Origin: Gammaproteobacteria bacterium
GTDB taxonomy: Bacteria > Pseudomonadota > Gammaproteobacteria > Eutrophobiales > Eutrophobiaceae
DNA: 64,000 nt
Direction of reading: 5' to 3'
NCBI GenBank assembly: GCA_965207165.1
Contig: OZ242265.1
Coordinates: forward strand, 1,501,593 to 1,565,592
Positions 1 through 12,488 of this stretch are shown one piece after another. Position 1 is the first letter of the stretch. Each line of letters opens with the position of its first letter. The position numbers were made by a program, and so were the translations under genes. The notes under the pieces were generated by a model, which saw nothing but the letters and a program-made list of their open reading frames with translations, did not search any database and was not told the DNA's origin.

Positions 1-989
1 CAGCCAGTATGGATGCGCGCAAAACGGAATTCGGTTATGTGGTCACATACTGGGTGCGCGGCGGTGAGCTGCTTAATGTCTGGATGGGTTACTACGAGCC
101 GAATGCGGATGAATTCGAAGGAGATGAAGGCGACTGGTTTCCCGCAGACCGTGCGGAGATGATCAGAAACATGAAAACAGCCTTCAAGGACGATGTGCGC
201 ATGGGTGATGTGGTTGCATTGGCGGGTAGCGTTGTAAAGCCTACGAAGTGGGGGTTGTACGATCTCGACGCTTTTCCGAGCTGGCATAACGGACGGGTTG
301 CCGTATTGGGCGACGCCGCCCACGCGGTACTGCCGACGTTCGGCCAGGGCGCTGCGCTGGCGATCGAAGATGGCGCTGCTCTCGGCAAATGTTTCGAGCT
401 GCATGGAAAAGACGTCTACAGTGCGTTGCTGCACTATGAGCGGGTCCGTCATTACCGCGGCACACGGGTGCAGTTTGCCTCCAAGTTCCTGCTCAGGCAT
501 CTCGAGCCGGAAGATTCCCCGGAGCGGCAAAAGATACTGAAGGCTTTGAACGAACGTGATTATCCGGTTTTTGATCACGCTCAACGCGCGGGGGGCGATG
601 ATTCCTGGTTGTATGCTTTTGATGCCCGGGATATCGGCGGCGAGATACCTGCCAAGCGACTCGGCCCCTGGGATTTCCGCTCGGTGGAAGCAGTCCGTGA
701 GGCCAGGATCGAGGTGGTGCGCAATCTCTGGGTGCCCGAGGTGTCCCTGAAGGGCGATCGCAAGGTGACCCTGGAGGAAGTTCGGCAACATAACACCTTT
801 GACGATTGCTGGATCATAATTCATGGCAAGGTCTACGACTTCAGTGAGTGGAAGGACCACCATCCGGGAGGACCTTTTGTGGCCCGGATGTATGCGGGCA
901 AGGACGCCACAGCAGAATTCGGCACCTACCACAGCAGACTGGCTGAGAAGCACATGGCCCACTTTTGCGTGGGGGACGTCGTCTACTGA
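1..989 (+). CDS. FAD-dependent aromatic-ring monooxygenase (salicylate-hydroxylase-like) C-terminal part fused to a C-terminal cytochrome b5 heme-binding domain; 5' end lies outside the window
   Basis: ORF 9..989; FAD-monooxygenase signature GDAAHAVLPTFGQGAALAIEDGAAL but no N-terminal GxGxxG, so the gene starts upstream; C-terminus has canonical cyt b5 motif (DCWIIIHGKVYDFSEWKDHHPGG...AGKDATAEF). Confidence 0.7.
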   Translation, partial: ASMDARKTEFGYVVTYWVRGGELLNVWMGYYEPNADEFEGDEGDWFPADRAEMIRNMKTAFKDDVRMGDVVALAGSVVKPTKWGLYDLDAFPSWHNGRVAVLGDAAHAVLPTFGQGAALAIEDGAALGKCFELHGKDVYSALLHYERVRHYRGTRVQFASKFLLRHLEPEDSPERQKILKALNERDYPVFDHAQRAGGDDSWLYAFDARDIGGEIPAKRLGPWDFRSVEAVREARIEVVRNLWVPEVSLKGDRKVTLEEVRQHNTFDDCWIIIHGKVYDFSEWKDHHPGGPFVARMYAGKDATAEFGTYHSRLAEKHMAHFCVGDVVY

Positions 990-1167
990 TTCTAAAATGG
1001 TTTTGGGAACGGCCACCAGCCAGCTTTGACCTCCTTAACTCCCGGCCTGCGCATTGCCGGGCAGCATCCGAACGTGTTTGTGAATTTGAAATGAACAAAG
1101 TGGATTGACAAAAACGCCTCTATAGCCTATGCTATGGCCTATGCCATGACAATAAAGGAGGAGCAAC

Positions 1168-1407
1168 ATGTTGCCTGAACGCTATGTCAGTTTATTCCGT
1201 AACGGCCGTAACCAGGCCTTGCGCATACCCCGGGAGTTTGAGTTGCCGGCCGGGAAAGCTATTATCCGCAAGGATGGTGACAAACTCATCATAGAGCCTG
1301 TCAGGACTGACGGATTACTCACCTTGCTGGCTTCCCTGGAGAATATCGAGACTACCTTTCCGGAAATGGATGAAGCATTGCTGCCTCCCGACAACGTGGA
1401 GTTGTAA
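1168..1407 (+). CDS. vapB: AbrB/MazE/SpoVT-type antitoxin (VapB-like), module 1
   Basis: 79 aa; swapped-hairpin motif LFRNGRNQALRIPREFEL; strong RBS AGGAGG 6 nt upstream; immediately followed by PIN gene. Confidence 0.8.
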   Translation: MLPERYVSLFRNGRNQALRIPREFELPAGKAIIRKDGDKLIIEPVRTDGLLTLLASLENIETTFPEMDEALLPPDNVEL

Positions 1408-1409
1408 TC

Positions 1410-1826
1410 TTGAAGCCGGCTTATCTCCTGGATACCAATGTGCTGTCGGATTTGGTGCGCCGCCCCCATGGTGTCATCACAAAGCGAATTTCGCTGGAGG
1501 GCGAAGACAATGTCTGCACCAGTATCATTGTGGCATCCGAATTACGTTTCGGCGCCCGCAAGCGTGGTTCCGAACAGTTGACCCGGCAACTTGACCTGGT
1601 CCTCTCGGCCATACAAGTCATGCCGTTCGAGGCGCCTGCCGACCATCATTACGCAAAGATTCGCGTTTATCTCGAAGAACGGGGCACGCCCATAGGCCCG
1701 AATGATATGCTCATCGCAGCACAGGCACTTGCGCTGGACTGCACACTGGTCACGAGGAATGTAAGGGAGTTTTCCCGTGTGCCCGCATTGAAAGTCGATG
1801 AATGGTCAGGAACTTCCCCGCACTAA
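1410..1826 (+). CDS. vapC: PIN-domain ribonuclease toxin (VapC-like), module 1
   Basis: 138 aa; N-terminal LLDTNVLSD PIN acidic motif; TTG start 3 nt after vapB stop. Confidence 0.8.
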   Translation: MKPAYLLDTNVLSDLVRRPHGVITKRISLEGEDNVCTSIIVASELRFGARKRGSEQLTRQLDLVLSAIQVMPFEAPADHHYAKIRVYLEERGTPIGPNDMLIAAQALALDCTLVTRNVREFSRVPALKVDEWSGTSPH

Positions 1827-1912
1827 TCGCCAAGCGCGCCATGATTTGTTGATTGATTATTCCCATGATATTATGTGGTATATGCTGTCATATACCAATG
1901 TAGGAGAAGCTC

Positions 1913-2146
1913 ATGCGCACTGCAAAAATTTTCAGGAACGGCCGCAGCCAGGCTGTCCGCATCCCCAAAGACTTCGCCTTTGAAGGTGTGACTGAGCTTA
2001 CTGTACAGAAACTAGGGCAGAAGCTGATCCTGGAACCGGTTCATGAATCCTGGTTGACGTTAAACGATGAAAGCGCGCCGGTCGGCGATGACTTCCTGGC
2101 CGAACGTCCGGATATGTTCGCGATTGATGAAAGCCGGGTAACGTGA
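1913..2146 (+). CDS. vapB: AbrB/MazE-type antitoxin (VapB-like), module 2 (paralog of 1168..1407)
   Basis: 77 aa; IFRNGRSQAVRIPKDFAF motif; upstream inverted repeat tggtatatgctgtcatatacca (candidate operator). Confidence 0.8.
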   Translation: MRTAKIFRNGRSQAVRIPKDFAFEGVTELTVQKLGQKLILEPVHESWLTLNDESAPVGDDFLAERPDMFAIDESRVT

Positions 2147-2563
2147 ATGATCTATATGCTTGATACGGACACCTGCAGCTACATCATGCGGCAGCACTCC
2201 CGGTCCGTCCTTGAGGCCCTGCAGGACAGGGCAAGCAGGGGTTATATCCTTTGTATGTCAGTAATTACCTACCAGGAGTTGCGCTTTGGCGCCGAACGGG
2301 TTGGCTCTGAGAGTTACCATGATCGTATCGATAAGGTATGCGAACGACTTGATTACGTGGCGGATTGGACAACGGAGTGTGCGGATAAGTTTGCCGTTAT
2401 ACAGTCTGTGTTGCTGAACAAGGGCAACCCTATCGGCTTCACTGATGCGATGATTGCCTCACATGCCCTGATAGTCGATGCTACGCTTGTGACGAATAAT
2501 CAAAGACATTTCTCCCAGGTAGAAGATCTCCGGCTGGAAAACTGGTTCAAGGAGGTCGTATGA
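2147..2563 (+). CDS. vapC: PIN-domain toxin (VapC-like), module 2
   Basis: 138 aa; MLDTDTCSY PIN N-terminus; start overlaps vapB2 stop (TGAATG). Confidence 0.8.
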   Translation: MIYMLDTDTCSYIMRQHSRSVLEALQDRASRGYILCMSVITYQELRFGAERVGSESYHDRIDKVCERLDYVADWTTECADKFAVIQSVLLNKGNPIGFTDAMIASHALIVDATLVTNNQRHFSQVEDLRLENWFKEVV

Positions 2564-2618
2564 AGGTGCGGCTACACGGAGTCACAGAACCGAACCTGGC
2601 CCAGCCAGAACCAAAAGG

Positions 2619-2741
2619 TAATAAACGGTGCTGGAAGGGGGAATAGAAATACACTAATAACCTATTGTTCTTAAAGTGCTTTATATTATTCCCATGCTCT
2701 ATACCCAACGTTTATCCCAACAATATTTTAACCAATAAAGT
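2619..2741. repeat. Left copy of ~120-bp imperfect direct repeat bracketing the AbiE island (50-bp core ataaacggtgcYggaagggggaatagaaatacactaataacctattgttYtta)
   Basis: Near-identical core re-occurs at 6479..6531, with a diverged but alignable ~70-bp tail (tttatcccaac...ataaag) in both copies. Confidence 0.8.
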
Positions 2742-2932
2742 CAATATTTAATGCCTGAATTCTACCAAGCCGACCAGGGCAAAGAAATGTAGTCTGAAGT
2801 TGTACATAGTAACTATATCAAAATACAATATTTTTCGTTTTTCTTTCCTGTTACTGTTATTTATAGTAGTACTATACTATTTTTCATGATATCCTCTATT
2901 ATTAGAACTAATTTGTACTATGGTATAGCACT

Positions 2933-3727
2933 ATGGGTAGCCAACCTTCAAAAAGACAACAGCGATTAGCTGCATTAATACGCGCAACGTCCGGCACAAT
3001 CCGTGGGTCTGATGCCATGCGGGTTCTTGGCGTCGATCGGCAACATGCATCCAGATTGCTGGCGGGATGGCATAAACAAGGGGTTATCAGGCGGGTTGCA
3101 CACGGCTTGTATGTTCCTGTTCAGCCGTCTGCCCTGGGTCAAAAACAGGTGCTTGAAGACCCCTGGGTGCTGGTTCCCGAGTTATACACACCAGGTTACG
3201 TCGGTGGCTGGAGCGCCTTGGAACACTGGGGGTTGACAGAACAGCTTTTCCGGTCAGTCTGTGTACTTACTCCTAAGCGCGTGGCCAATGGTGTAATCAC
3301 TCATCAAGGTGTCAACTTCTTTATCAAACATGTCGCTGAAAAGCAATTATTCGGGACAAAATCCATATGGTTGGGAAATACGAAGATACTGATTTCAGAC
3401 CCATACAAGACACTGTTGGATTGTATCGATGACCCGGACCTGGGCGCAGGCTTGCAACATGTAACAGACTGCTTGCTCGAATTTGCGCGAGTGTTCAATA
3501 AACAGAGTGATCTTAATACATTATTGAAATATGCCATCCAATTAGGTAACGGCGCATTATTCAAAAAACTGGGTTACCTGGCTGAAACGCTTGAGTTCAA
3601 GCCTTCTTTTATCAATGCATGCCGGCAACGAATTACATCGGGTTATTCCACTCTCGATAAAAAGTCTGAAAAAAATCGTCTGGTTACACGCTGGAATTTA
3701 TGGGTACCGAGAGATAGGGCGAAATGA
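2933..3727 (+). CDS. abiEi: AbiEi-family type IV TA antitoxin/transcriptional regulator (AT-rich pair)
   Basis: 264 aa; N-terminal wHTH-like region plus HGLYVP / GGWSALEHWGLTEQ motifs typical of AbiEi (COG5340-like); stop overlaps the next ORF (ATGA). Confidence 0.65.
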   Translation: MGSQPSKRQQRLAALIRATSGTIRGSDAMRVLGVDRQHASRLLAGWHKQGVIRRVAHGLYVPVQPSALGQKQVLEDPWVLVPELYTPGYVGGWSALEHWGLTEQLFRSVCVLTPKRVANGVITHQGVNFFIKHVAEKQLFGTKSIWLGNTKILISDPYKTLLDCIDDPDLGAGLQHVTDCLLEFARVFNKQSDLNTLLKYAIQLGNGALFKKLGYLAETLEFKPSFINACRQRITSGYSTLDKKSEKNRLVTRWNLWVPRDRAK

Positions 3728-4101
3728 TTGTCAAGGATGAAATACTGGCTTTTGCCGACGAGACGGGTTTAACGCCGAACGTTGTAGAGAAAGACTATGT
3801 GCTCGGTTGGTTGCTCGCTGCAGTTAATTCGAACCCTGTCTTATCGCAATCGTGGGTATTCAAGGGAGGCACTTGTCTGAAGAAATGCTACTTTGAAACT
3901 TACAGATTTTCAGAAGATTTAGATTTCACGCTTCGAGATCAGAGTCATATCAATGAGACAGTTTTGAAGGAGCAATTCGTCTCCATTTCTGAATGGCTAT
4001 ATGAAGAAACAGGAATAGAAATTCCTTCTGACAGGCTTGTATTTGACATATATGCCAATCCCAGGGGCGGACAATCCTGTCAGGGGCGCGTATATTGCTG
4101 A
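3724..4101 (+). pseudogene. abiEii: AbiEii/AbiGii (DUF1814) nucleotidyltransferase toxin, truncated to 125 aa (full length would be ~300 aa)
   Basis: Has N-terminal VFKGGTCL nucleotidyltransferase motif but ends 2 bp before the stop of the convergent GC-rich AbiEii gene; C-terminal two thirds are missing. Confidence 0.6.
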
Positions 4102-4103
4102 AG

Positions 4104-5060
4104 TCATCTGAGAATATGCCGTCTCACATTTTCGATTTTCCATAATAGTGCCGGAGATCGCGCCAATCGACCTGCCAGTTTCTCATCGTCAGGAAACAGC
4201 AACTCAGGCGATAGTTCACCGGCATGCACCAGGTCAATATATTCCCGCTCGGCCTCATCAAGCGTAACCAGCGGTTTCATAACGAACCATGCCTGTTTCT
4301 TTAACTCATTTGCAACTGGCCACACATTACCCTGAAGCATCGGTACAAGCTGTTCCTCTATGCTTCTATCGGTGACACGCGCGAAGCGATCCTGTCCGTA
4401 TTGATAAAGCGGAAGCGGCAGTGTAACCGCCAGCGCCACATGAATACGTCGCAATCGTTGGCTACCCCAAATATCCGCTCCGTATTTTGGCAATCGAATG
4501 GTATCGAATAGATCACGCGGCAGCGCCCGATCCAGAGTCGCGCGCAGCTTACCGGCATACAGTTCTTCCATAGGCACGACCCGAGTTTCGGGGGATGAAA
4601 TTCCCGGTGGTTGCCAGAGCGGCCGTGTTGTGACTTCACCGAGTGGTACGCGAAATAAAAAGTTGAGATCGATCTCAATACGGTCTCGCGTACCGACCGA
4701 ACTTGTGTAGGTGAGATAGAACTTCCGTCCGGCATGGGCATCGCGTGATTGTTGTACTCGGTATCCCTGCCCCTCTCCGATATTAGCGAGAGCCCGTTCA
4801 ACCTTCGGGCGCTCAGCTTGCATACCCGCCGGATCCTCATGCCCGATATAATTAAAATCCAGATCAACCGAAAGCCGGGCCGGGGGGCCAAACAACAGAT
4901 TCAATGCCGTACCACCTTTCAATATCAATACACGTGATAGCAACGGATGACGCCCAACATCCGCGGCTAATTCACCCAGGCGGATCACTTTCTCCAATGT
5001 CTCCGTACGAAAACCAGTCTCCGTTGCGATTCCTTCAATGAATTCAGCGCTGAGATTCAT
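4104..5060 (-). CDS. abiEii: AbiEii/AbiGii-family nucleotidyltransferase toxin (DUF1814), full length, GC-rich pair
   Basis: 318 aa; LILKGGTALNLLFG motif and DLDF nucleotidyltransferase signature; start overlaps the upstream AbiEi gene by 17 bp. Confidence 0.75.
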   Translation of the reverse strand: MNLSAEFIEGIATETGFRTETLEKVIRLGELAADVGRHPLLSRVLILKGGTALNLLFGPPARLSVDLDFNYIGHEDPAGMQAERPKVERALANIGEGQGYRVQQSRDAHAGRKFYLTYTSSVGTRDRIEIDLNFLFRVPLGEVTTRPLWQPPGISSPETRVVPMEELYAGKLRATLDRALPRDLFDTIRLPKYGADIWGSQRLRRIHVALAVTLPLPLYQYGQDRFARVTDRSIEEQLVPMLQGNVWPVANELKKQAWFVMKPLVTLDEAEREYIDLVHAGELSPELLFPDDEKLAGRLARSPALLWKIENVRRHILR

Positions 5061-5847
5061 CCGGCTCCATACCCTCCAGTATTGCGCCCGGGACGATCAG
5101 ATTCCATCGTCGTACCAGTACGCCGCCACGTTGGTCCCTGGCAAGATAAAGCGGCGCCTTTGGGACGTGCTTTTCTATTAATGCAAGATCACCATCACTG
5201 ACATAAAAGGTCTTTCGATACAGCTCAAGGAACCAGCCGACCGCTGCCCACAACACCTTTTGTCCGAAAACATCCAGAAGCTCAAGCAACAGCGGCAACT
5301 CCAGAACAGGGAACCCCGCCGCCGACTCGACAAACTCCGCAAGCCCGCCCACCAGGTCCGGCCGACGGAAACCATCGATCAAAGTACGTTCGGGCCCGGT
5401 AACTCGTAATTCACGATCAAGCCGGTGGACGGAGCGTATGCCCCGATCAAAAGCCCGATGGTGCACCAGTGATTGCGGGTGGGACAGGAAGCGCAGTTCA
5501 AGGCCATCCAGATCGAACGACTGTGAACGCCTGGCGCTGTATGCGGTGCATAGCCGCCATTCGGAATGCGCGGCGCCCAGCAGTTCAAGCGCCGAATGAT
5601 GGGAAAAGACCGCATCGGGTCGCATCGCCACTGCCACTAGAAAACGATCCGGCTGAAATTTGGCAGCATCCACCCCCGGTGGCACCGAGGCATAGACCCC
5701 CCGTGTGAGCTTCTTCAGCTTGTTTCGTGCGGCTGCGTATTTCAGGCGCTCCAACGTTGCTTTACGCCCGCCGGACGGCGCCAATACTCGTGCGGCTTCA
5801 TCGAGATTGAAGACCCGGTGCGTTTGCAAGAAGGTGCCAGTATCCAT
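5044..5847 (-). CDS. abiEi: AbiEi-family antitoxin/transcriptional regulator (GC-rich pair)
   Basis: 267 aa; RGVYASVP and SHHSALELLGA motifs of the AbiEi_4-like N-terminal domain; translationally coupled to the toxin. Confidence 0.7.
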   Translation of the reverse strand: MDTGTFLQTHRVFNLDEAARVLAPSGGRKATLERLKYAAARNKLKKLTRGVYASVPPGVDAAKFQPDRFLVAVAMRPDAVFSHHSALELLGAAHSEWRLCTAYSARRSQSFDLDGLELRFLSHPQSLVHHRAFDRGIRSVHRLDRELRVTGPERTLIDGFRRPDLVGGLAEFVESAAGFPVLELPLLLELLDVFGQKVLWAAVGWFLELYRKTFYVSDGDLALIEKHVPKAPLYLARDQRGGVLVRRWNLIVPGAILEGMEPDESQR

Positions 5848-6048
5848 GAGTCAAAACTTGTCAATATTTGCGGATATTGGGAGGATATTCCCCTTTATAT
5901 GGCATATATGTCAAGTATTTTATGCTGAAATTACTTGCCTGACCGTCTATCGCAATAAAAATTGACCCGCCTGTTACTTGACCTCTCTGGCACGGGATTC
6001 ACCCATTACCTGCTACGCCAGATGCTATTACTGACCCTCGCCCCGGAA

Positions 6049-6317
6049 CTAGTACTCTTTCAACTTAATATTGACATGTTCAGCGGGTCGGGAAGCGGTT
6101 GCGCGCAAGGCGCGCCGCGCAGGGAATGGCGCGTCCTTGCCAAGCGGCGTAACGCCGCGGGCGACCGCTTCCCGGCCCGCCCGCAGGGAGCCACACAGCG
6201 ACGCCAATACGGCGTTGCAGCCCTTGACAAGGGCGCGCCATTCTCTGCGGGCTGCGCCTTGTCTTGGCGTCGCTGTGTGGCTCTGAACATGTCAATATTA
6301 AGTTGAAAGAGTACTAG
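6049..6317. repeat. 269-bp GC-rich palindromic element with perfect 35-bp terminal inverted repeats (ctagtactctttcaacttaatattgacatgttcag) and nested internal inverted repeats; MITE-like or structured-RNA-like
   Basis: TIR 6049..6083 is the exact reverse complement of 6283..6317; internal pairs B 6084-6099/B' 6164-6179 (15/16), D 6191-6207/D' 6264-6280 (17/17), X 6120-6144/X' 6223-6247 (22/25); interior ~70% GC in an AT-rich setting. Confidence 0.85.
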
Positions 6318-6478
6318 ACACCTGTAAATTCAAGATTTCCGGTAAGTGCGTTAGATATCACTTCATGGACGACCTCCATCGTGACAACGCCGGTTAGATT
6401 GAGGTTCTTGGCTTTCACAATTTTGCCTGTATCGTTGTCTGTAACGGATTTGACCTTGCTGTTTGCCGGTAAAGAAGT

Positions 6479-6598
6479 GATAAACGGTGCCGGAAGGGGG
6501 AATAGAAATACACTAATAACCTATTGTTTTTAATGTATTTAATATCATCTCCTTGCCTTTTATCCCACGATTTTCCCAACAAGATTTGGATTGATAAA
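6479..6598. repeat. Right copy of the ~120-bp imperfect direct repeat bracketing the AbiE island
   Basis: See 2619..2741; 49/51 identity in the core. Confidence 0.8.
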
Positions 6599-6629
6599 GA
6601 CGAGCGATTTCAGAGCCAGTACTGCTATC

Positions 6630-7400
6630 TTATTCGGTGAACCGTTGCCGCAAATCTTCCAGCATAGCGGCTGAAATTGAAAATCTTTCCTCCAGGTAGC
6701 GCTCAATTGTTCCGTGATTGTCTTCCATATAGTTCAGGGCGCCCAATATATATTCTGATTTTACGCCCAGCATGGCAAGGACAGAGGCCCTGTCCATCCC
6801 GGTGCCCTCCCCGCCGCCGTACCTGGCCGAAGCCTGGGCAACCTGCTGTTCAGGCACAAAATATTTGCCGGAAAGCAGGTAATCTTCAACAACAATTTCC
6901 CTGGGTACGCCCAGGGCCGATAGCAGGAGAGTTGAGCCAAAACCCGTGCGGTCCTTGCCGGCCGAGCAATGAATGAGCATCGCCCCATGCTCAAGCTCAA
7001 ACAGGCGCCGGAACATGCCGCTGAATTCATCAACATGGCTTGAAGCAAACTCAACATATATACCACGCATCATGTCGTCTATACACTGTATGGAGATTCT
7101 CTTTCCCGGTCCTGGTTTCACATAGGATTCCATTTGTCCCGGATCGATCGCCAACTGCATAACCTGAGCGTTATCGGGCAATCGGCTGGGATCCTTTCGT
7201 CTTTCACTTTGCCCCCGGAAATCACAGCAATAGACGATATCAAGACCGGAAAGATATTTGATGTCCCTGTCTGTCAGGTCACTCAATTGGCCTGACCGGA
7301 ATAACCGGTTCCACTTGACCCGCCGCCCGTCGACCGTCGGATAACCCCCAAGGTCGCGAAAGTTGACCCCGCCCTCCAGCGGTAATAATCGTCCCGGCAT
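6630..7400 (-). CDS. Protein tyrosine/serine phosphatase family protein
   Basis: Active-site loop HCSAGKDRTG (CX5R); likely start is the ATG at 7400 (MPGRLL...), 5 bp after the upstream gene stop; the longer ORF to 7490 overlaps the upstream gene. Confidence 0.7.
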   Translation of the reverse strand: MPGRLLPLEGGVNFRDLGGYPTVDGRRVKWNRLFRSGQLSDLTDRDIKYLSGLDIVYCCDFRGQSERRKDPSRLPDNAQVMQLAIDPGQMESYVKPGPGKRISIQCIDDMMRGIYVEFASSHVDEFSGMFRRLFELEHGAMLIHCSAGKDRTGFGSTLLLSALGVPREIVVEDYLLSGKYFVPEQQVAQASARYGGGEGTGMDRASVLAMLGVKSEYILGALNYMEDNHGTIERYLEERFSISAAMLEDLRQRFTE

Positions 7401-7404
7401 TCGG

Positions 7405-9288
7405 CTATTCAACTGTTGGTGTATACCAGATCGGTGATGTATAAGCGCGCTCCTGGAGAAACATCGGCGTTTCGGCTGCAGGTTCGTCACCGAAGATCTT
7501 TACATCGTAGGCCGTCCAGCGCGGGGTCGGAATCTCTATCACGCGCGCGTAGTACACCGCCGGCTGTGATGCATCAAATTCCGGGTCCTGCCAGAAACCA
7601 ACCAGTTGTGCATCACCTATCGAATCGGTCCAACTGGCATTGGCCACGTCCACTGTGTTCCCTACCGCAGGCAGCGTGCCGTCGTGCCTTGGTTCGCGCC
7701 GGTGCGCATCACCCCAGACCACGTTGAATATCTTCTCATGGGTCATGCCGCCGCCATCCAGCCAGCCCTTCACGATCTGGATACGGTCGAGATTACCGCT
7801 CAAGGGGTCTTTCAGCGCGGCTACCAGGAAGGTGGGGGCCTGTCGTCCCGTTTCAGGGTGCAGGGTGCCTCCCATGGGCACTCCCCCGGCATACCCCTTG
7901 GGTACCAGCATCGGCGAGTTCGCATCCTCTGCGGAAAAATGCCAACCGCCGAATAAGCGTACCGTCATGCGCGGCCCGGTGGTGGCATAGACTTCCTTGC
8001 GCTGCATCGCATCCCATATGGACTCCCGGGTATTCTCTTCCGCCCATACCGCCGCATAGCCGGACGCGCTGGTTTCCCACACCCGCCACTGAGGCAGATC
8101 CGGAGCCGCCATGGGCAAAGCCATGCGGGCCGGCTTCGGCTCGTAACTCGCGAACTTGCCGAAGAAGTTGTTTTCACCGGCAGTTGAAAGTGCTGTGTGA
8201 CTGTCCGTGGACCCCACCATACCGAATTGGTACGGGTTGACGCCGAGGGCGCGCGCCAGTTTGAGGCCGTTTTTCAGCGCCTCGCGGGCGTATTCGTATT
8301 GGAGCATGCCGGGTGTTTTCAACTTCGCTAAAGTGGCGTTGCCTCTGTCCCAGGTCTCGAAATCCGCGAATTCGTCTGTGGGAGAGAGATAGGGATGGGC
8401 CTCGCCGTCCCCTTTTATCTGAGTCACTTCGTAGAGCGGTTCCCAGCGGGCACGTGTCTGCACATATTCCGCGTCAATGGCAGCCCCCGTGTTGGGGTTG
8501 GTCTCTACCGGAAACATCTGGCCGTTGCTCAGGTTGCCGTTGTGAGCAAGCGCCAGCACCTTGCCGCCGGTCTCCTTCTCGTAGCGCTGCATCCATTTCC
8601 ACAGGTCCTGAGGATTAATGCTGTCGGCGGCCGTGAACGGTTGCGGTTTGCGCGCGCTATCCGCCCCGCCCCGGTAGAGCACATTGCGATGCAGCTTGTC
8701 TCCACCTTTCATCGGCGTCCATTCGTAACCGATAAGGGCGGTAAAGCGCCCGGGATCGTTGTACCGATCCGCCGTCTCTACGTAGCGTTCCCAGACCGAG
8801 CGCATGATCGTCTGGTCCAGGAGTGGTCCTGAATAGTCACCATCGAGCACGCGCATGATCACACGCATTGCACCCTTCGCCGCCTCGCCTCCCGCCTTGA
8901 GTCCGTTGTGCATATCCAGAAGCTCGGGATGCTCCAGCAGTGCCGGGTTGCCCAGGATCAATTGGTCCATGACCCCCAGCGCATCGGAATGATCGGATAC
9001 CACCAGAAAGTCCAGGGGACGGGCGAGGCGCACGGCCTGGCCGCTGCTGGAAACTACTTTTTCACCGCGGGCAAACCGGTACGCGTCTTCGACAGTCAAA
9101 GTTACTCCCGTCGCGCGGGCATCCAGAGAGTTGGTGGTATGCAGGTGAGTATCACCCCAGAGAGGTTGTGTCGGATAGTTCACATCTGCATAGGGCGAAT
9201 AGCGCAGCTCAGCGCCTGACGCCACAAAGGGGACAATGCAGAGCAACGAACACATGGCGACCGCTATTTTCCAGACTGCAAATTTCAT
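7405..9288 (-). CDS. Large secreted protein of unknown function (DUF3604-like)
   Basis: ATG at 9288 with RBS GGAG gives signal peptide MKFAVWKIAVAMCSLLCIVPFVASGAE; ~627 aa; HLHT metal-binding-like motif; family assignment is from memory, no domain search possible. Confidence 0.5.
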   Translation of the reverse strand: MKFAVWKIAVAMCSLLCIVPFVASGAELRYSPYADVNYPTQPLWGDTHLHTTNSLDARATGVTLTVEDAYRFARGEKVVSSSGQAVRLARPLDFLVVSDHSDALGVMDQLILGNPALLEHPELLDMHNGLKAGGEAAKGAMRVIMRVLDGDYSGPLLDQTIMRSVWERYVETADRYNDPGRFTALIGYEWTPMKGGDKLHRNVLYRGGADSARKPQPFTAADSINPQDLWKWMQRYEKETGGKVLALAHNGNLSNGQMFPVETNPNTGAAIDAEYVQTRARWEPLYEVTQIKGDGEAHPYLSPTDEFADFETWDRGNATLAKLKTPGMLQYEYAREALKNGLKLARALGVNPYQFGMVGSTDSHTALSTAGENNFFGKFASYEPKPARMALPMAAPDLPQWRVWETSASGYAAVWAEENTRESIWDAMQRKEVYATTGPRMTVRLFGGWHFSAEDANSPMLVPKGYAGGVPMGGTLHPETGRQAPTFLVAALKDPLSGNLDRIQIVKGWLDGGGMTHEKIFNVVWGDAHRREPRHDGTLPAVGNTVDVANASWTDSIGDAQLVGFWQDPEFDASQPAVYYARVIEIPTPRWTAYDVKIFGDEPAAETPMFLQERAYTSPIWYTPTVE

Positions 9289-9444
9289 CTCAAGCTCCGT
9301 GTTCAGGTACAGGGTTAATGTCATGCTGTGCGAAATTCCCAGCCCGGCCCACTTCAGTTGCTGCGGCTTGGAATTTGTATTATGCACATCCGCGCCTCTA
9401 CTACAAGTCACTTGATCTTAATTGCAGGTGAGCTTATACTTAAC

Positions 9445-9452
9445 GAACGTTC
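9445..9452. promoter_or_regulatory. 8-bp palindrome GAACGTTC just upstream of the TetR gene RBS; candidate TetR auto-operator
   Basis: Perfect palindrome 17 bp upstream of the TetR ATG in the divergent intergenic region. Confidence 0.3.
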
Positions 9453-9468
9453 AGTCAGGAGACGTTTC

Positions 9469-10050
9469 ATGAAAGCCACTGCTACACACATGCTCTCGGT
9501 CGCTGCAAAGCAGTTTGCCGAAAAGGGTTATTCAGGCGCTTCCATGCGCAACATCGCCAATGCTGTCGGGACGACCCAGGCAGCGATATACCACCATTTT
9601 CCAAACAAGAACGCCCTCTACCTGGCCGTGCTGGCCAGACATTTTGATGCTAAGTCCAGTGGCATGGCTGATGATCTGGCCCAGGTCAGTGATCCGGAAG
9701 AGCGTTTGAAAATCCTGGTGCACCGTTTGCTTGAACTGGTGGAGGAAGATGAACAGTTTCGCCAGCTCTATTTTCGCGAACTGCTGGAGAATGACGAAGA
9801 GCGTTTGCGCGTACTGGCAGACAACGTGTTTGGCGAACTGGCTGTCACCCTGACTGCTCTCCTGGAAGAACTGGCGCCGCGAATGGACTCTCACCTTATG
9901 CTGCTTTCACTCGGCGGCCTGGTTTGCCACCACCTTGAGGCGCGCAAGCTCAGTCCCTTCCTGCCGGGAGGCAAACGTAAACACCAACAGCTGGATGTGC
10001 TGGCTGAACACATTACGGAACTCCTCCTGCACGGAGTACAGCGGTCATGA
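9469..10050 (+). CDS. TetR/AcrR-family transcriptional regulator
   Basis: N-terminal HTH SMRNIANAVGTTQAAIYHHFPNK; ATG at 9469 preceded by AGGAG; stop overlaps the start of the MMPL gene (ATGA). Confidence 0.8.
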   Translation: MKATATHMLSVAAKQFAEKGYSGASMRNIANAVGTTQAAIYHHFPNKNALYLAVLARHFDAKSSGMADDLAQVSDPEERLKILVHRLLELVEEDEQFRQLYFRELLENDEERLRVLADNVFGELAVTLTALLEELAPRMDSHLMLLSLGGLVCHHLEARKLSPFLPGGKRKHQQLDVLAEHITELLLHGVQRS

Positions 10051-12488
10051 GGCAGGGAAAAAACGACTATCTGCACAAGGCCGATGAGATGTTCGGTCAC
10101 CTGGGCCTTTGGATGTATGGCCACAAACTCATCGTCCTGCTGTGCGCACTGGGATTACTGGTCACCGGTCTTTACTTCGCCGGCAAGACTCGTGCCGACA
10201 ACAGTCTGGACAGTTTTTTTGATGCGACAGACACTGCCTATAACGCCTATATAACCTACCAGGATGAGTTCGGTTCAGACGAGGTGGCTTATATCCTTTA
10301 CACGGTTCCCAACAGTCCCTACGGCCCCTTTGACCTGGACGCCATGCAGCGCATAGCGCAACTGACCGAGGCCCTGGAATACGAGGTGCCTTTCGTAAGG
10401 GACGTAACCAGCCTGAGTAACGTGGAGTTCATCACTGCGGATGGCGATTTCCTTGAGATCCACGAGTTGGCGCTGGATATGCCGGAGGACCAGGCCGGCC
10501 TGCTGGAACGCGGTCAGGCGATGATGCAAAAGCCCAGTTACCGTGGCGCCATCGTCAACAACGAGGCCACCCATGGCGCTATCATCCTGGAAATGACTAT
10601 TGCCATCAACGATCCGCTGGACGAAATAAGACTGGACCCGGAAGGTGGCGACGGGCTGGCCAACCTGTATCCGCAGGCGGCCAAACACAAGATCGACGAG
10701 ATCCTGTCCCGGCCGGAATACACCGGTATTGATTTTTACCTGGGCGGTGATGTCCAGATGAGCACGGCCTACAACGAGACCATCACACGTGACACGGTCC
10801 GGCAAACCCTGTTGACACTGGCCCTGGTCAGTATCATTGCCATGATATGCTTCCGCATGCAGCTTCTGGGGCTGGCCGGGCCGCTTTCAGTTGTGATTCT
10901 CGCCCTGATCCTGACCATAGGCTTCATGGGCCTGATCGGCTACGAGATGGGGATTCTGTTCCTTATTGTGCCCACCTTCCTGACCGCCATCGGTGTTGCG
11001 CAGTCGGTACACCTGATCACCGAATTCAACCTGATGCGCGCCCGGGGCCTGGACCGGCGAGAGGCAGTAAAACAGGCCATGGAACACGTGGCCATGCCCT
11101 GCCTCCTGGCAGCATTTACCACGGCGGCAGCGTTCCTGGTCATGGCGACCTCTAAACTGCGCGCCTTGTCGGAAATAGCCGTGTACCAGAGCGTTGGTGT
11201 GATGCTTGCCTTCCTTGCCAGCATCACCGTCATGGTCTGTTACATGTCCATGGGCAAAGACAGACCGCACAAATCACTCGATCCGTCGGAGAGGAAGTCC
11301 GGCCTGTTGTATTATCTCCTCCACCGCGTTGCAGCATTGAACCTTAAGCGTCCCTTCGCCATCATGGCGGTGTTCGGTGTAATTCTGACAGGTTCCATGA
11401 TCGGGATCGGCAAACTGCACGTAGGCTTCAACTTCCTGGAGGAATTCAAACCACATACCCGGTTCCGGCTGGATACCGACCACATACAAAACGTGATGGG
11501 CGGCATGCTTAACGTGGTTTTCATCTACGACAGCGGTAAGGCCGACGGCATCAAGAGCAGCGAGATGCTTGCTCACCTTGAAGGGCTCCAGGCCTATGCT
11601 GAGCGGTCAACCATTGTCGAAAAGAGCTACTCTGTGGTCGATATTCTCAAGGATATAAACCAGAGTTTTCACGGTGATGACCCGGCCTACTACCGACTGC
11701 CGGAAAGCGGCGAGTTAATCGCACAGTACCTGTTGTTGTATGAGATCTCCGGTGGCGAAGAACTCAGTGATTTCGTAAGTGGCGACTACCGCCGGACTGC
11801 CCTGGAACTGCGGGTGGATATTACTGATTCGAGACATATCAAGGCCTTGATCGACGACCTGGAGCGCTATATGGCGGCGCACCCTGTATCCGGCGCAGAG
11901 ATCCGGATCACAGGCATGGGTTTATTATGGGTCAGGTTAGCCAGTTATATCGCCGAGAGCCAGATGTGGGGCTACGGGCTTGCCTTCATCATCATCGCCC
12001 TGGTAATGTGCCTGGCTTTCCGTTCAGTGAAAGTTGGCCTGCTTGTCATGATTCCCAACCTGTTTCCTGCTGTTCTGGTTCTGGGCTTTATGGGCTTGAA
12101 CGGCATGCAACTGGACTATTTCAAGCTGATGCTGGCGACGGTAGCCATCGGTATCGCGGTTGACGACACGGTGCACATTTCCACCCGCATACGAAAAGAG
12201 TTCCACCGTTCCGGCAACTACGAGGAAGCCATTCGGACCAGCCTGTTGAGCACGGGCCGGGCTCTTGTCATTACCACTATCATCCTTTCACTGTCCTTCC
12301 TTGTATACACGGTTTCCGATATGGCAATACTGGCAGATTTCGGGATACTGCTATCTGCCACCATGGTTTCGGCATTGGTCGCCGACCTGTTCCTGTTACC
12401 TTGCCTGGTGCTGGTGCTGAAGCCCTTTGGGCCGGAATACGAACCGGCCACTGTCAGTGATCCGGCGCCCGCAACCCACACATTATGA
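10047..12488 (+). CDS. RND-superfamily MMPL-type transporter (two 6-TM bundles plus periplasmic domains)
   Basis: 813 aa; two repeated hydrophobic blocks with periplasmic loops in the MMPL/HpnN-like architecture; in an operon with TetR and a LolA-like protein. Confidence 0.75.
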   Translation: MRQGKNDYLHKADEMFGHLGLWMYGHKLIVLLCALGLLVTGLYFAGKTRADNSLDSFFDATDTAYNAYITYQDEFGSDEVAYILYTVPNSPYGPFDLDAMQRIAQLTEALEYEVPFVRDVTSLSNVEFITADGDFLEIHELALDMPEDQAGLLERGQAMMQKPSYRGAIVNNEATHGAIILEMTIAINDPLDEIRLDPEGGDGLANLYPQAAKHKIDEILSRPEYTGIDFYLGGDVQMSTAYNETITRDTVRQTLLTLALVSIIAMICFRMQLLGLAGPLSVVILALILTIGFMGLIGYEMGILFLIVPTFLTAIGVAQSVHLITEFNLMRARGLDRREAVKQAMEHVAMPCLLAAFTTAAAFLVMATSKLRALSEIAVYQSVGVMLAFLASITVMVCYMSMGKDRPHKSLDPSERKSGLLYYLLHRVAALNLKRPFAIMAVFGVILTGSMIGIGKLHVGFNFLEEFKPHTRFRLDTDHIQNVMGGMLNVVFIYDSGKADGIKSSEMLAHLEGLQAYAERSTIVEKSYSVVDILKDINQSFHGDDPAYYRLPESGELIAQYLLLYEISGGEELSDFVSGDYRRTALELRVDITDSRHIKALIDDLERYMAAHPVSGAEIRITGMGLLWVRLASYIAESQMWGYGLAFIIIALVMCLAFRSVKVGLLVMIPNLFPAVLVLGFMGLNGMQLDYFKLMLATVAIGIAVDDTVHISTRIRKEFHRSGNYEEAIRTSLLSTGRALVITTIILSLSFLVYTVSDMAILADFGILLSATMVSALVADLFLLPCLVLVLKPFGPEYEPATVSDPAPATHTL

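What the first reader, a model, noticed from the sequence alone, without database searches (positions are those of the whole stretch)
2933..5847. Nested AbiE type IV toxin-antitoxin modules: a GC-rich AbiEii/AbiEi pair sits exactly where an AT-rich AbiEii toxin gene is truncated
The AT-rich AbiEi (2933-3727) is followed by an AbiEii that stops after 125 aa at 4101. This is 2 bp from the stop (4104) of a full-length, convergently oriented, clearly GC-richer AbiEii/AbiEi pair (4104-5847). The arrangement looks like insertion of one Abi module into the toxin gene of another. That disarms the first toxin and leaves an orphan AbiEi regulator. It is an example of defence or addiction modules displacing each other.
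Basis: partly seen in the sequence, partly recalled or inferred. Interest (0 to 1): 0.6.

Follow-up and report, generated by a model that had tools for sequence, protein, structure and literature searches.

The report
Half-deleted AbiE module fused to intact one
Two unrelated AbiE toxin–antitoxin (phage-defence) gene pairs lie tail to tail in a variable gene island, and one has lost two-thirds of its toxin gene at an old, inherited breakpoint; this is ordinary decay and reshuffling of such modules, not one module nested inside another.

Summary
AbiEi-1 (2933-3727) is intact. AbiEii-1 (3724-4101) is a 125-aa stub of a 403-406-aa AbiEii+WYL toxin. It abuts a complete convergent AbiEii-2/AbiEi-2 pair (4104-5847). 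Module 1 is 46.2% GC and module 2 is 54.7%.

Related contigs place the breakpoint at 4096|4097, 7 nt beyond the AbiEii-2 stop. The identical junction occurs in six contigs besides the window, in several flanking contexts, so it is one old inherited event. Intact module 1 exists in relatives (L010, L003b, L013-15). There is no natural 125-aa family.

The nested-insertion reading is not supported:
- No 3' part of AbiEii-1 lies beyond module 2 or anywhere else in the 64 kb.
- Only one illegitimate joint exists. Both outer ends are natural element boundaries: a 128-nt att-like repeat whose first 13 nt match the tRNA-Thr(CGT) 3' end.
- Module 2, not module 1, has host-like composition.

My preferred model is a single deletion, or a homology-anchored replacement, that fused two neighbouring elements in a tRNA-Thr-derived toxin-antitoxin island. 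Relatives show further independent toxin-killing lesions, while the AbiEi genes usually stay intact.

The finding is ordinary biology and of low to moderate interest.

The parts
1168..2563 (+). Two VapB/VapC (MazE-like antitoxin + PIN toxin) modules directly upstream. They are variable members of the same island.
   Evidence: Pfam MazE_antitoxin/PIN hits. Both are absent in L001, VapBC-2 is absent in L016, and both are present in L009.
2613..2740 (+). DR1, the left copy of a 128-nt att-like direct repeat. Its core GGTGCYGGAAGGG matches the 3' end of tRNA-Thr(CGT).
   Evidence: the repeat finder D1, 80% identical to 6472-6599. There are 0 chance matches. Alignment with the tRNA-Thr 3' end is. 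The left edge is sharp in all contexts.
2801..2933 (+). Likely abiE-1 promoter/operator region: a sigma-70-like site (2801-2829) and the inverted repeat TAGTACTATACTAT / ATGGTATAGCACTA (2867-2880 / 2920-2933).
   Evidence: Function is inferred by analogy with AbiEi operators (PMC3985639) and was not tested.
2933..3727 (+). AbiEi-1, an intact antitoxin/autorepressor with no cognate toxin in this window.
   Evidence: The 264-aa ORF is intact in the window, L002, L006, L011 and L016.
3724..4101 (+). AbiEii-1 stub: codons 1-124 of a 403-406-aa AbiEii+WYL toxin, then Cys and a stop supplied by the module-2 flank. It keeps NTase motifs I (FKGGT, aa 46) and II (EDLDF, aa 64). It lacks motif III (aa 182), motif IV (aa 193) and the WYL domain (aa 316-380).
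4090..4106 (.). Fusion junction at 4096|4097. Module-1 homology ends at ...GTATATT. The native 3' flank of module 2 (GCTGAAG) starts at 4097, 7 nt from the AbiEii-2 stop codon.
   Evidence: Intact copies in L003b, L001 and L010 continue ACAGAAGC. Independent module-2 homologues L007/L008 read GCTGGAATCATCTGG.
4104..5060 (-). AbiEii-2, a complete DUF1814 NTase toxin with motifs I-IV (aa 47, 65, 170, 181).
5044..5847 (-). AbiEi-2, the complete cognate antitoxin. It overlaps abiEii-2 by 17 nt.
   Evidence: PDLC02270, 1.4e-64.
5900..5992 (.). Candidate abiE-2 operator: inverted repeat TGGCATATATGTCAAGTA / TACTTGACCTCTCTGGCA.
   Evidence: A third, inverted copy of the 18-mer lies at 4040-4057 inside the AbiEii-1 stub.
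6049..6317 (.). MITE-like insertion with 35-nt perfect terminal inverted repeats, a GC-rich palindromic interior and a TAG target duplication. It is specific to this window's lineage.
   Evidence: The empty site is seen in L002, L003 and L005.
6318..6471 (.). Segment 'f', the sequence that in L011 lies directly beside the 3' end of the intact tRNA-Thr gene. It is the natural outer end of the module-2 element.
6472..6599 (+). DR2, the right copy of the att-like repeat, immediately before the 3' end of the Y_phosphatase3 gene (6630-7490, minus strand). In L003 and L010 an intact module 1 sits in or after this repeat.

Best explanation
The locus is a composite cassette in a variable toxin-antitoxin island built on att-like repeats derived from the tRNA-Thr(CGT) 3' end. 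It consists of the left part of a module-1 element (repeat, AbiEi-1, first 124 codons of an AbiEii+WYL toxin) joined by one illegitimate joint (4096|4097) to the right part of a module-2 element (complete AbiEii-2/AbiEi-2 and the tRNA-proximal end 'f'). The most economical origin is a single deletion across the boundary of two adjacent, convergently oriented elements. That deletion removed the 3' two-thirds of AbiEii-1, its downstream flank, the intervening repeat and any spacer. The event is old and inherited. The composite has since been carried into different neighbourhoods and has decayed further in some lineages. As for present function, AbiE-2 is a complete toxin-antitoxin/abortive-infection pair. 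The AbiEii-1 stub should be harmless because it lacks motifs III and IV. AbiEi-1 survives as an autoregulated orphan antitoxin. The structure, the junction and the comparative states are shown. The deletion mechanism and the present functions are inferred.
For: The junction is pinned by two independent homology series. The identical junction occurs in the window, L003a, L005, L006, L011 and L016, and its flanks are present in L002. No 3' remnant of AbiEii-1 exists in the 64 kb. Intact repeat-AbiEi-1-AbiEii-1(403-406 aa) beside the phosphatase is seen in L010 (full repeat on both sides) and L003b (only the right half of the repeat downstream). Module 1's natural left boundary (about 2781, behind the repeat) is shared with L001, L013 and L014. 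The natural right end of module 2 ('f' plus core) abuts the real tRNA-Thr in L011. The repeat is low copy and confined to this island in four GTDB genomes (MAGs). Independent lesions are: an internal toxin deletion in L001, two deletions that destroy AbiEii-2 in L002, loss of AbiEi-1 plus 20 codons in L005, and a 35-aa AbiEi-1 fragment in L009. Motifs III and IV are required for toxicity in S. agalactiae AbiEii (PMC3985639), and the stub lacks them.
Against: No genome with the predicted pre-fusion state (intact module 1 convergent with module 2) was found. A replacement event anchored in the repeat, with one illegitimate end, would give the same product. No integrase was found in or next to the island, so the att interpretation of the repeat rests on sequence alone. 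The right endpoint lies only 7 nt past a stop codon, which is a tidy coincidence for a random deletion. Copy 'a' in L003 carries 12 single-base indels that may be assembly errors, so that contig should be read with caution.
Confidence: 0.6

Rival explanations
1. Insertion with replacement, the closest salvage of the first reader's idea. Incoming DNA carrying module 2, 'f' and the att-like repeat recombined with a resident module-1 element. One end recombined homologously in the repeat downstream of module 1, and the other joined illegitimately inside abiEii-1. The toxin's 3' part was replaced in a single step, in the manner of homology-facilitated illegitimate recombination.
For: L010 shows repeat - module 1 (intact) - repeat - phosphatase. 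The window shows repeat - module-1 stub | module 2 - f - repeat - phosphatase. Relative to L010, only the toxin's 3' part is exchanged for module 2 plus f. There is one illegitimate joint and one repeat-anchored side. The joint lies 7 nt past the AbiEii-2 stop, as expected for a compact incoming fragment.
Against: This model also needs module 2 to have been next to a repeat elsewhere first. No donor context with at least 95% identity was found. Composition makes module 2 host-like rather than the newcomer. The model cannot be distinguished from deletion with the present data.
Confidence: 0.25
2. True nested insertion: a discrete mobile module-2 cassette transposed into abiEii-1, and the distal toxin fragment was later deleted.
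For: The adjacency is exact and the composition differs.
Against: There is no distal fragment in any of the seven junction-lineage contigs (the window plus six relatives). No flanking repeats of at least 18 nt (from 11-nt exact seeds) bound module 2; a short target-site duplication could not be assessed because the right end of any insert is undefined. No transposase or integrase is present. This model needs at least two events where one suffices.
Confidence: 0.07
3. The composite is a selected functional unit rather than debris. Orphan AbiEi-1 (with or without the stub) would give immunity against AbiE-1-type toxins on incoming or resident elements (anti-addiction). Alternatively, convergent read-through could tune abiEii-2 by antisense transcription.
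For: The composite is conserved in seven contigs counting the window, in several contexts. The AbiEi-1 ORF is intact in five of them, with dN/dS of 0.16-0.39. L003 carries the composite plus an intact module 1, while the window and L002 have exactly that copy missing between repeat halves. No terminator-like site lies between the convergent operons.
Against: AbiEi-1 is deleted in L005, reduced to 35 aa in L009 and possibly frameshifted in L003a. Substitution counts are too small to separate selection from recent origin. The stub shows the same low dN/dS although it is presumably non-functional. AbiEi-1 and AbiEi-2 are only 19% identical, so cross-protection of AbiEii-2 is unlikely.
Confidence: 0.08

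Closest known systems
AbiE (AbiEi/AbiEii) toxin-antitoxin / abortive-infection systems (Dy et al. 2014, PMC3985639; MenAT of M. tuberculosis, PMC7450476, PMC7205606)
   Same: Both modules are antitoxin-first bicistronic operons with overlapping genes. Each has a COG5340-type wHTH+CTD antitoxin and a DUF1814 NTase toxin. Module 2 has all four NTase motifs. Inverted repeats lie upstream of both antitoxin genes.
   Different: Module 1 here has only a 125-aa toxin stub. Its intact relatives carry a C-terminal WYL domain that the characterised S. agalactiae and lactococcal toxins lack. The 'type IV' label may be outdated: a 2026 preprint (10.64898/2026.01.19.700257) reports AbiEi binding and antitoxin-induced toxin auto-phosphorylation, which would make the system type VII.
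Orphan antitoxins and anti-addiction modules in decaying chromosomal toxin-antitoxin loci (general TA literature, from my own knowledge)
   Same: The toxin is inactivated first and the antitoxin is kept. Several independent toxin lesions are seen across relatives.
   Different: No functional test was done here. AbiEi-1 is itself lost in some relatives.
tRNA-linked genomic islands with tandem accretion, bounded by direct repeats of the tRNA 3' end
   Same: The 128-nt repeats begin with 13 nt identical to the tRNA-Thr(CGT) 3' end. An intact tRNA-Thr borders the island in L005, L006 and L011. Segments between repeats are gained and lost as units.
   Different: No integrase was found in or beside the island. 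In this window the tRNA itself is absent and the repeat abuts a phosphatase gene. The segments are very small, at 0.8-3.9 kb.
Chromosomal integron cassette arrays rich in toxin-antitoxin cassettes
   Same: Small toxin-antitoxin cassettes are separated by similar repeats of about 110-130 nt.
   Different: The repeats do not fold as attC hairpins (z about -0.9). There are only 1-2 copies per locus found (8-kb stretches) and no IntI, and gene orientation is mixed. The locus is not a member of this class.

Membership tests
AbiE system (module 2, 4104-5847) | DUF1814/AbiEii NTase toxin of full length with motifs I (hGG/S), II (DhD), III (K...R) and IV (+DxxD) | tested here: met
   PF08843 at 1.3e-27. 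PDLC02305 matches 1-306/306. Motifs lie at aa 47, 65, 170 and 181. Homologues are 317-321 aa.
AbiE system (module 2, 4104-5847) | Upstream, overlapping AbiEi (COG5340-type) antitoxin gene in a bicistronic operon | tested here: met
   PADLOC AbiEi PDLC02270 at 1.4e-64, covering 2-259/265. There is a 17-nt overlap with abiEii-2. Pfam finds nothing for this protein.
AbiE system (module 2, 4104-5847) | Inverted repeats in the promoter, bound by AbiEi for autorepression | tested here: inconclusive
   An inverted-repeat pair lies at 5900-5917 / 5975-5992, 78% complementary. Binding was not testable.
AbiE system (module 2, 4104-5847) | Toxicity neutralised by the antitoxin; abortive infection against phage | not testable with these tools
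   This needs expression and phage assays.
AbiE system (module 1, 2933-4101) | AbiEi antitoxin | tested here: met
   Pfam AbiEi_4 (34.1 bits) and AbiEi_1 (27.9 bits), both above their cut-offs. PDLC02271 at 1.8e-92.
AbiE system (module 1, 2933-4101) | Complete AbiEii toxin with motifs I-IV | tested here: not met
   Only 125 aa of about 403-406 are present. Motifs III and IV and the WYL domain are absent. Module 1 is therefore a remnant, not a functional AbiE pair.
Natural short (about 125 aa) AbiEii-like family | Homologues that end at a conserved position with a stop codon inside long contigs | tested here: not met
   Short hits end at scattered positions, or by frameshift or contig end. Unbiased and full-length searches give proteins of 390-490 aa.
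Nested insertion (gene split by an inserted element) | The distal part of the interrupted gene is present beyond the insert | tested here: not met
   tblastn with seven longer homologues of the toxin (five of them complete) finds no hit to residues beyond 130 anywhere in the window. None is seen in the other junction-bearing contigs either.
Integron attC cassette array | The repeat folds as an imperfect hairpin (R''-L''/L'-R'); there are many copies; IntI is nearby | tested here: not met
   ssDNA folds give z of -0.3 to -0.9. There are 2 copies in 64 kb and 1-2 per GTDB locus found (8-kb stretches). No integrase was seen among the ORFs examined.
tRNA-linked island att repeat | The direct repeat contains a copy of the tRNA 3' end, and an intact tRNA lies at one island end | tested here: met
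   GGTGCCGGAAGGG matches the tRNA-Thr(CGT) 3' end. tRNA-Thr is adjacent to 'f' in L011, and tRNA-Thr lies at one end of the island in L005 and L006.
tRNA-linked island att repeat | A cognate tyrosine or serine integrase | tested here: inconclusive
   None lies within 1-6630 or among nine downstream ORFs. The rest of the genome was not available.

The most novel reading that the evidence does not exclude
The fused cassette is maintained as a unit because orphan AbiEi-1 works as an anti-addiction immunity gene against AbiEii+WYL toxins. This would let the host shed or resist intact module-1 elements: L003 still has one, and the window and L002 have lost exactly that segment between repeat halves. 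In addition, terminator-less convergent transcription from the abiE-1 promoter, possibly gated by the AbiEi-2-operator-like 18-mer at 4040-4057, would modulate abiEii-2 expression.
Probability: 0.12. Interest if true: 0.5.

Novelty: new member of a known kind. Interest (0 to 1): 0.27.

Why it matters
The locus is a clean, comparatively resolved example of how chromosomal toxin-antitoxin and defence modules decay. Toxins are hit first and repeatedly by independent deletions, while antitoxin genes usually persist. It also shows how small modules are shuffled between att-like repeats in a tRNA-derived hotspot. For annotation it is a caution: adjacency plus a GC step does not show which module arrived second, or that one was inserted into the other. 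It has no obvious bearing on an open question in the field.

Tried and rejected
1. Natural short AbiEii family. The first search returned only proteins of 219 aa or fewer, which looked like support. This was an artefact of the short query. The exhaustive search and the full-length query show relatives of 390-490 aa, and the short ones end at scattered points.

2. A 3' remnant of AbiEii-1 beyond module 2. There is none in the 64 kb.

3. Integron attC nature of the 128-nt repeat. Rejected: no hairpin, low copy number and no IntI.

4. High-copy REP or MITE nature of the repeat. Rejected: only 4 GTDB genomes carry it, at 1-2 copies per locus found.

5. Inversion between the 18-nt inverted copies (4040-4057 / 5900-5917) as the origin of the arrangement. 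Re-inverting the segment does not restore abiEii-1. The 4040 copy is native coding sequence, also present in L001 and L010, which lack module 2.

6. Tandem duplication followed by deletions. This is possible but needs at least three events.

7. Search for the pre-fusion state, through close full-length AbiEii-1 homologues (L013-L015) and a metagenome scan for the AbiEii-2 3' end. These found only intact module 1 alone, or the same junction again (L016).

8. The 267-aa ORF in L014 as an orphan AbiEi-2. There is no similarity.

9. Rfam on 1-10000. No matches.

10. dN/dS to test selection on orphan AbiEi-1. The counts are too small to decide.
Full report
**1. The observation**

- AbiEi-1 (2933-3727, 264 aa) hits Pfam AbiEi_4 and AbiEi_1, and a PADLOC AbiEi model over its full length.
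- The next ORF (3724-4101, 125 aa) starts by ATGA overlap with the AbiEi-1 stop. It matches only positions 1-123 of a 396-position PADLOC AbiEii model, and 1-52 of 238 of Pfam PF08843.
- On the other strand, AbiEii-2 (4104-5060, 318 aa) matches its PADLOC model end to end. AbiEi-2 (5044-5847, 267 aa) matches an AbiEi model at 2-259/265.
- Almost all AbiEii-2 homologues are 317-321 aa.
- The two stop codons are 2 nt apart.
- Module 1 is 46.2% GC and module 2 is 54.7%. The window background is 52.9 +/- 3.4%. Module 1 is therefore the outlier (z = -1.9; 3.5% of background windows are as low) and module 2 is host-like (z = +0.6). Tetranucleotide distance ranks them the same way.

**2. Is 125 aa a natural length?**

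No. The first homology search listed only short proteins, but that came from using a short query.
- The exhaustive representative search gave many relatives of 390-480 aa, all aligned to query residues 1-123.
- A full-length query returned more than 7000 proteins, mostly 395-490 aa with AbiEii+WYL domains.
- The short entries end at scattered positions, by contig end or frameshift.
- Orthologues whose first 124 residues are identical or nearly identical to the window's are 403 aa (L003b) and 406 aa (L010).
- The 406-aa protein has the AbiEii domain at 29-268 and a WYL domain at 316-380.
- NTase motifs I, II, III and IV sit at residues 46, 64, 182 and 193, so the stub keeps only I and II.
- In S. 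agalactiae AbiEii, substitutions in motifs III and IV abolish toxicity (PMC3985639). I infer, without a test, that the stub is non-toxic.

**3. The junction**

Intact module-1 copies (L001, L003b, L010) read ...GGGCGCGTATATT|ACAGAAGCTATTTC. The window reads ...GGGCGCGTATATT|GCTGAAGTCATCTGAG. Independent module-2 homologues in an unrelated context (L007/L008, about 90% nt identity) read GCTGGAATCATCTGG from exactly that point. The breakpoint is therefore 4096|4097. The stub's last codon and its stop come from the native 3' flank of module 2, 7 nt from the AbiEii-2 stop.

**4. The same junction elsewhere**

The identical junction is present in L003 (copy a), L005, L006, L011 (GTDB MAG CBDBPJ010000001.1) and L016 (a JGI contig). 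L002 has its flanks but has deleted the junction itself. The flanking genes differ among these contigs:
- window and L003: VapBC-2 on the left
- L016: VapC-1 on the left
- L006: a TacAT-like gene on the left and HigBA plus tRNA-Thr on the right
- L011: tRNA-Thr directly on the right

This is one old event whose product has since moved or been re-contextualised.

**5. No nested structure**

tblastn with seven longer homologues of the toxin (five of them complete, 391-475 aa) finds nothing corresponding to residues beyond 130 anywhere in the 64 kb. The only other hit is the paralogous AbiEii-2. Beyond module 2 come:
- its own upstream region, with a candidate operator inverted repeat (5900-5992)
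- a MITE-like element (6049-6317)
- a segment 'f' (6318-6471)
- the second copy of a 128-nt direct repeat (6472-6599; the first copy is at 2613-2740, 80% identical)

**6. What the repeat is**

- It starts sharply in every context with (C/T)GGTGCYGGAAGGGGG.
- Its first 13 nt match the 3' end of tRNA-Thr(CGT). That tRNA is intact at the island edge in L005, L006 and L011. In L011 segment 'f' runs directly into it.
- The repeat is not a hairpin-forming attC (z about -0.9).
- It is not a dispersed repeat either. A scan of 185,579 species genomes found it in four uncultured gammaproteobacterial MAGs only, at one or two copies in each locus found.

I read it as an att-type scar of tandem element accretion at tRNA-Thr. 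No integrase was seen in the island or among nine downstream ORFs.

**7. Intact module 1 in relatives**

- L010 (chromosome OY282354.1) has repeat - AbiEi-1 - AbiEii-1 (406 aa) - repeat - phosphatase.
- L003 has the composite, followed by f - repeat - AbiEi-1 - AbiEii-1 (403 aa) - right half of the repeat - phosphatase.
- The window and L002 have f - repeat - phosphatase. That is exactly what is left if the intact copy is lost, or was never gained, between the repeat halves.
- L001, L013 and L014/15 carry module 1 alone in other places. Their homology to the window starts at about 2781-2799.

Module 1 in the composite therefore keeps its natural left boundary, and module 2 keeps its natural right boundary. 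Only 4096|4097 is an unnatural joint.

**8. Origin**

One unnatural joint between two natural outer ends is what a single deletion across two neighbouring convergent elements would leave. I prefer this model (about 0.55-0.6).

A homology-anchored replacement has one crossover in the repeat and one illegitimate end inside abiEii-1. It gives the same product and cannot be excluded (about 0.25).

A true transposition-like insertion followed by loss of the distal fragment needs more events and has no supporting feature (about 0.07).

I could not find the predicted pre-fusion array.

**9. Decay pattern in relatives**

- L001: AbiEii-1 has an internal deletion of about 49 codons and a frameshift, but keeps its C-terminal part.
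- L002: one deletion (window 4032-4331) removes the junction and the AbiEii-2 3' end, and a second (4581-4936) lies inside AbiEii-2. Both AbiEi genes remain intact and no toxin is left.
- L005: window 2801-3783 (AbiEi-1 and 20 codons of the stub) is deleted, which is permissible because the toxin was already dead.
- L009: only 35 codons of AbiEi-1 remain.
- AbiEi-1 is an intact 264-aa ORF in the window, L002, L006, L011 and L016. dN/dS among orphan copies is 0.16-0.39, based on 4-16 substitutions of each class (synonymous or nonsynonymous) per pair, which is too few to prove selection.

**10. How the locus probably works now (inferred)**

AbiE-2 is a complete pair. By homology it is a DUF1814 NTase toxin held in check by its AbiEi. 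The mechanism has classically been called type IV. A 2026 preprint now reports antitoxin-induced toxin auto-phosphorylation.

AbiEi-1 probably still represses its own promoter, given the inverted repeat at 2867-2933. It is only 19% identical to AbiEi-2, and the toxins are 30% identical, so cross-neutralisation is unlikely.

No terminator-like site separates the convergent operons, so antisense read-through is possible. This was not tested.

**11. Verdict**

The truncation, the orphan antitoxin and the disarmed toxin all stand. The nesting, the insertion polarity and the 'displacement' story do not. Both modules belong to known families, and the arrangement is ordinary island plasticity and toxin-antitoxin decay. 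Interest is low to moderate.

Noticed in passing
window 2613-2740 and 6472-6599; also L003, L005, L006, L010, L011, L012, L014: This is a 128-nt direct repeat whose first 13 nt match the 3' end of tRNA-Thr(CGT). It bounds small toxin-antitoxin cassettes (VapBC-2, TacAT, AbiE-1, the AbiE composite) in several relatives. It is low copy and specific to this island in four GTDB MAGs. No integrase was found.
   Followed up: yes
window 6049-6317: A MITE-like element of about 262-269 bp has 35-nt perfect terminal inverted repeats, a GC-rich interior with nested palindromes (61% GC) and a TAG target duplication. It sits 200 bp upstream of abiEi-2. The empty site (CCGGAATTAGACACC) is seen in L002, L003 and L005. 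There is no other copy in the window or the fetched loci.
   Followed up: partly
window 4040-4057 and 5900-5917: The 18-mer TGGCATATATGTCAAGTA in the abiEi-2 promoter is half of an inverted-repeat pair with 5975-5992. It recurs, inverted and with one mismatch, inside the AbiEii-1 coding sequence about 40 nt from the junction. Only 0.05 matches with up to 3 mismatches are expected by chance in the window. The copy in abiEii-1 is native, because it is also present in L001 and L010, which lack module 2. This is unexplained.
   Followed up: partly
L010 4350-5570 versus L003 (reverse complement 9620-10831): AbiEii-1 is mosaic between close relatives. Nucleotide identity is 97-100% through AbiEi-1 and about the first 150 codons of the toxin, then drops to 71-87% over the C-terminal (WYL) part. 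L003b's C-terminal part matches L001 instead. Breakpoints of four independent lesions also fall between codons about 103 and 190.
   Followed up: partly
window 1168-2563: Two tandem VapBC (MazE-like/PIN) modules lie directly upstream of the AbiE region. They vary among relatives: both are absent in L001, only VapC-1 is present next to the repeat in L016, and both are present in L009. TacAT-like, HigBA-like and RelE/MqsA-like modules occupy the same island in other relatives.
   Followed up: partly
L003 (reverse complement 3681-4005): A second, internally deleted copy of the Y_phosphatase3 gene (equivalent to window 6580-6818 plus 7319-7413) lies upstream of VapBC-2 in L003. This suggests an older segmental duplication in the island.
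   Followed up: no
L003 (reverse complement 5083-6405): The truncated module-1 copy in L003 carries 12 single-base indels relative to all other copies, while the rest of the contig is clean. These may be real pseudogenisation or a consensus error in a duplicated region of a long-read assembly.
   Followed up: no
window 6630-7490 (minus strand); L010, L003: A tyrosine-phosphatase-family gene (Y_phosphatase3) lies convergent to, and about 250-270 bp from, the intact AbiEii-1 in L010 and L003. A 2026 preprint reports that AbiEii is neutralised by phosphorylation and reactivated by a phosphatase. The adjacency may be coincidental, since the gene belongs to a conserved DUF3604/TetR/MMPL block.
   Followed up: no
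L007 4708-6957: The 86%-identical module-2 homologue in an unrelated genome also sits about 400 nt downstream of a tRNA gene (tRNA-Ser GGA). This is the same geometry as module 2 next to tRNA-Thr in L011.
   Followed up: no
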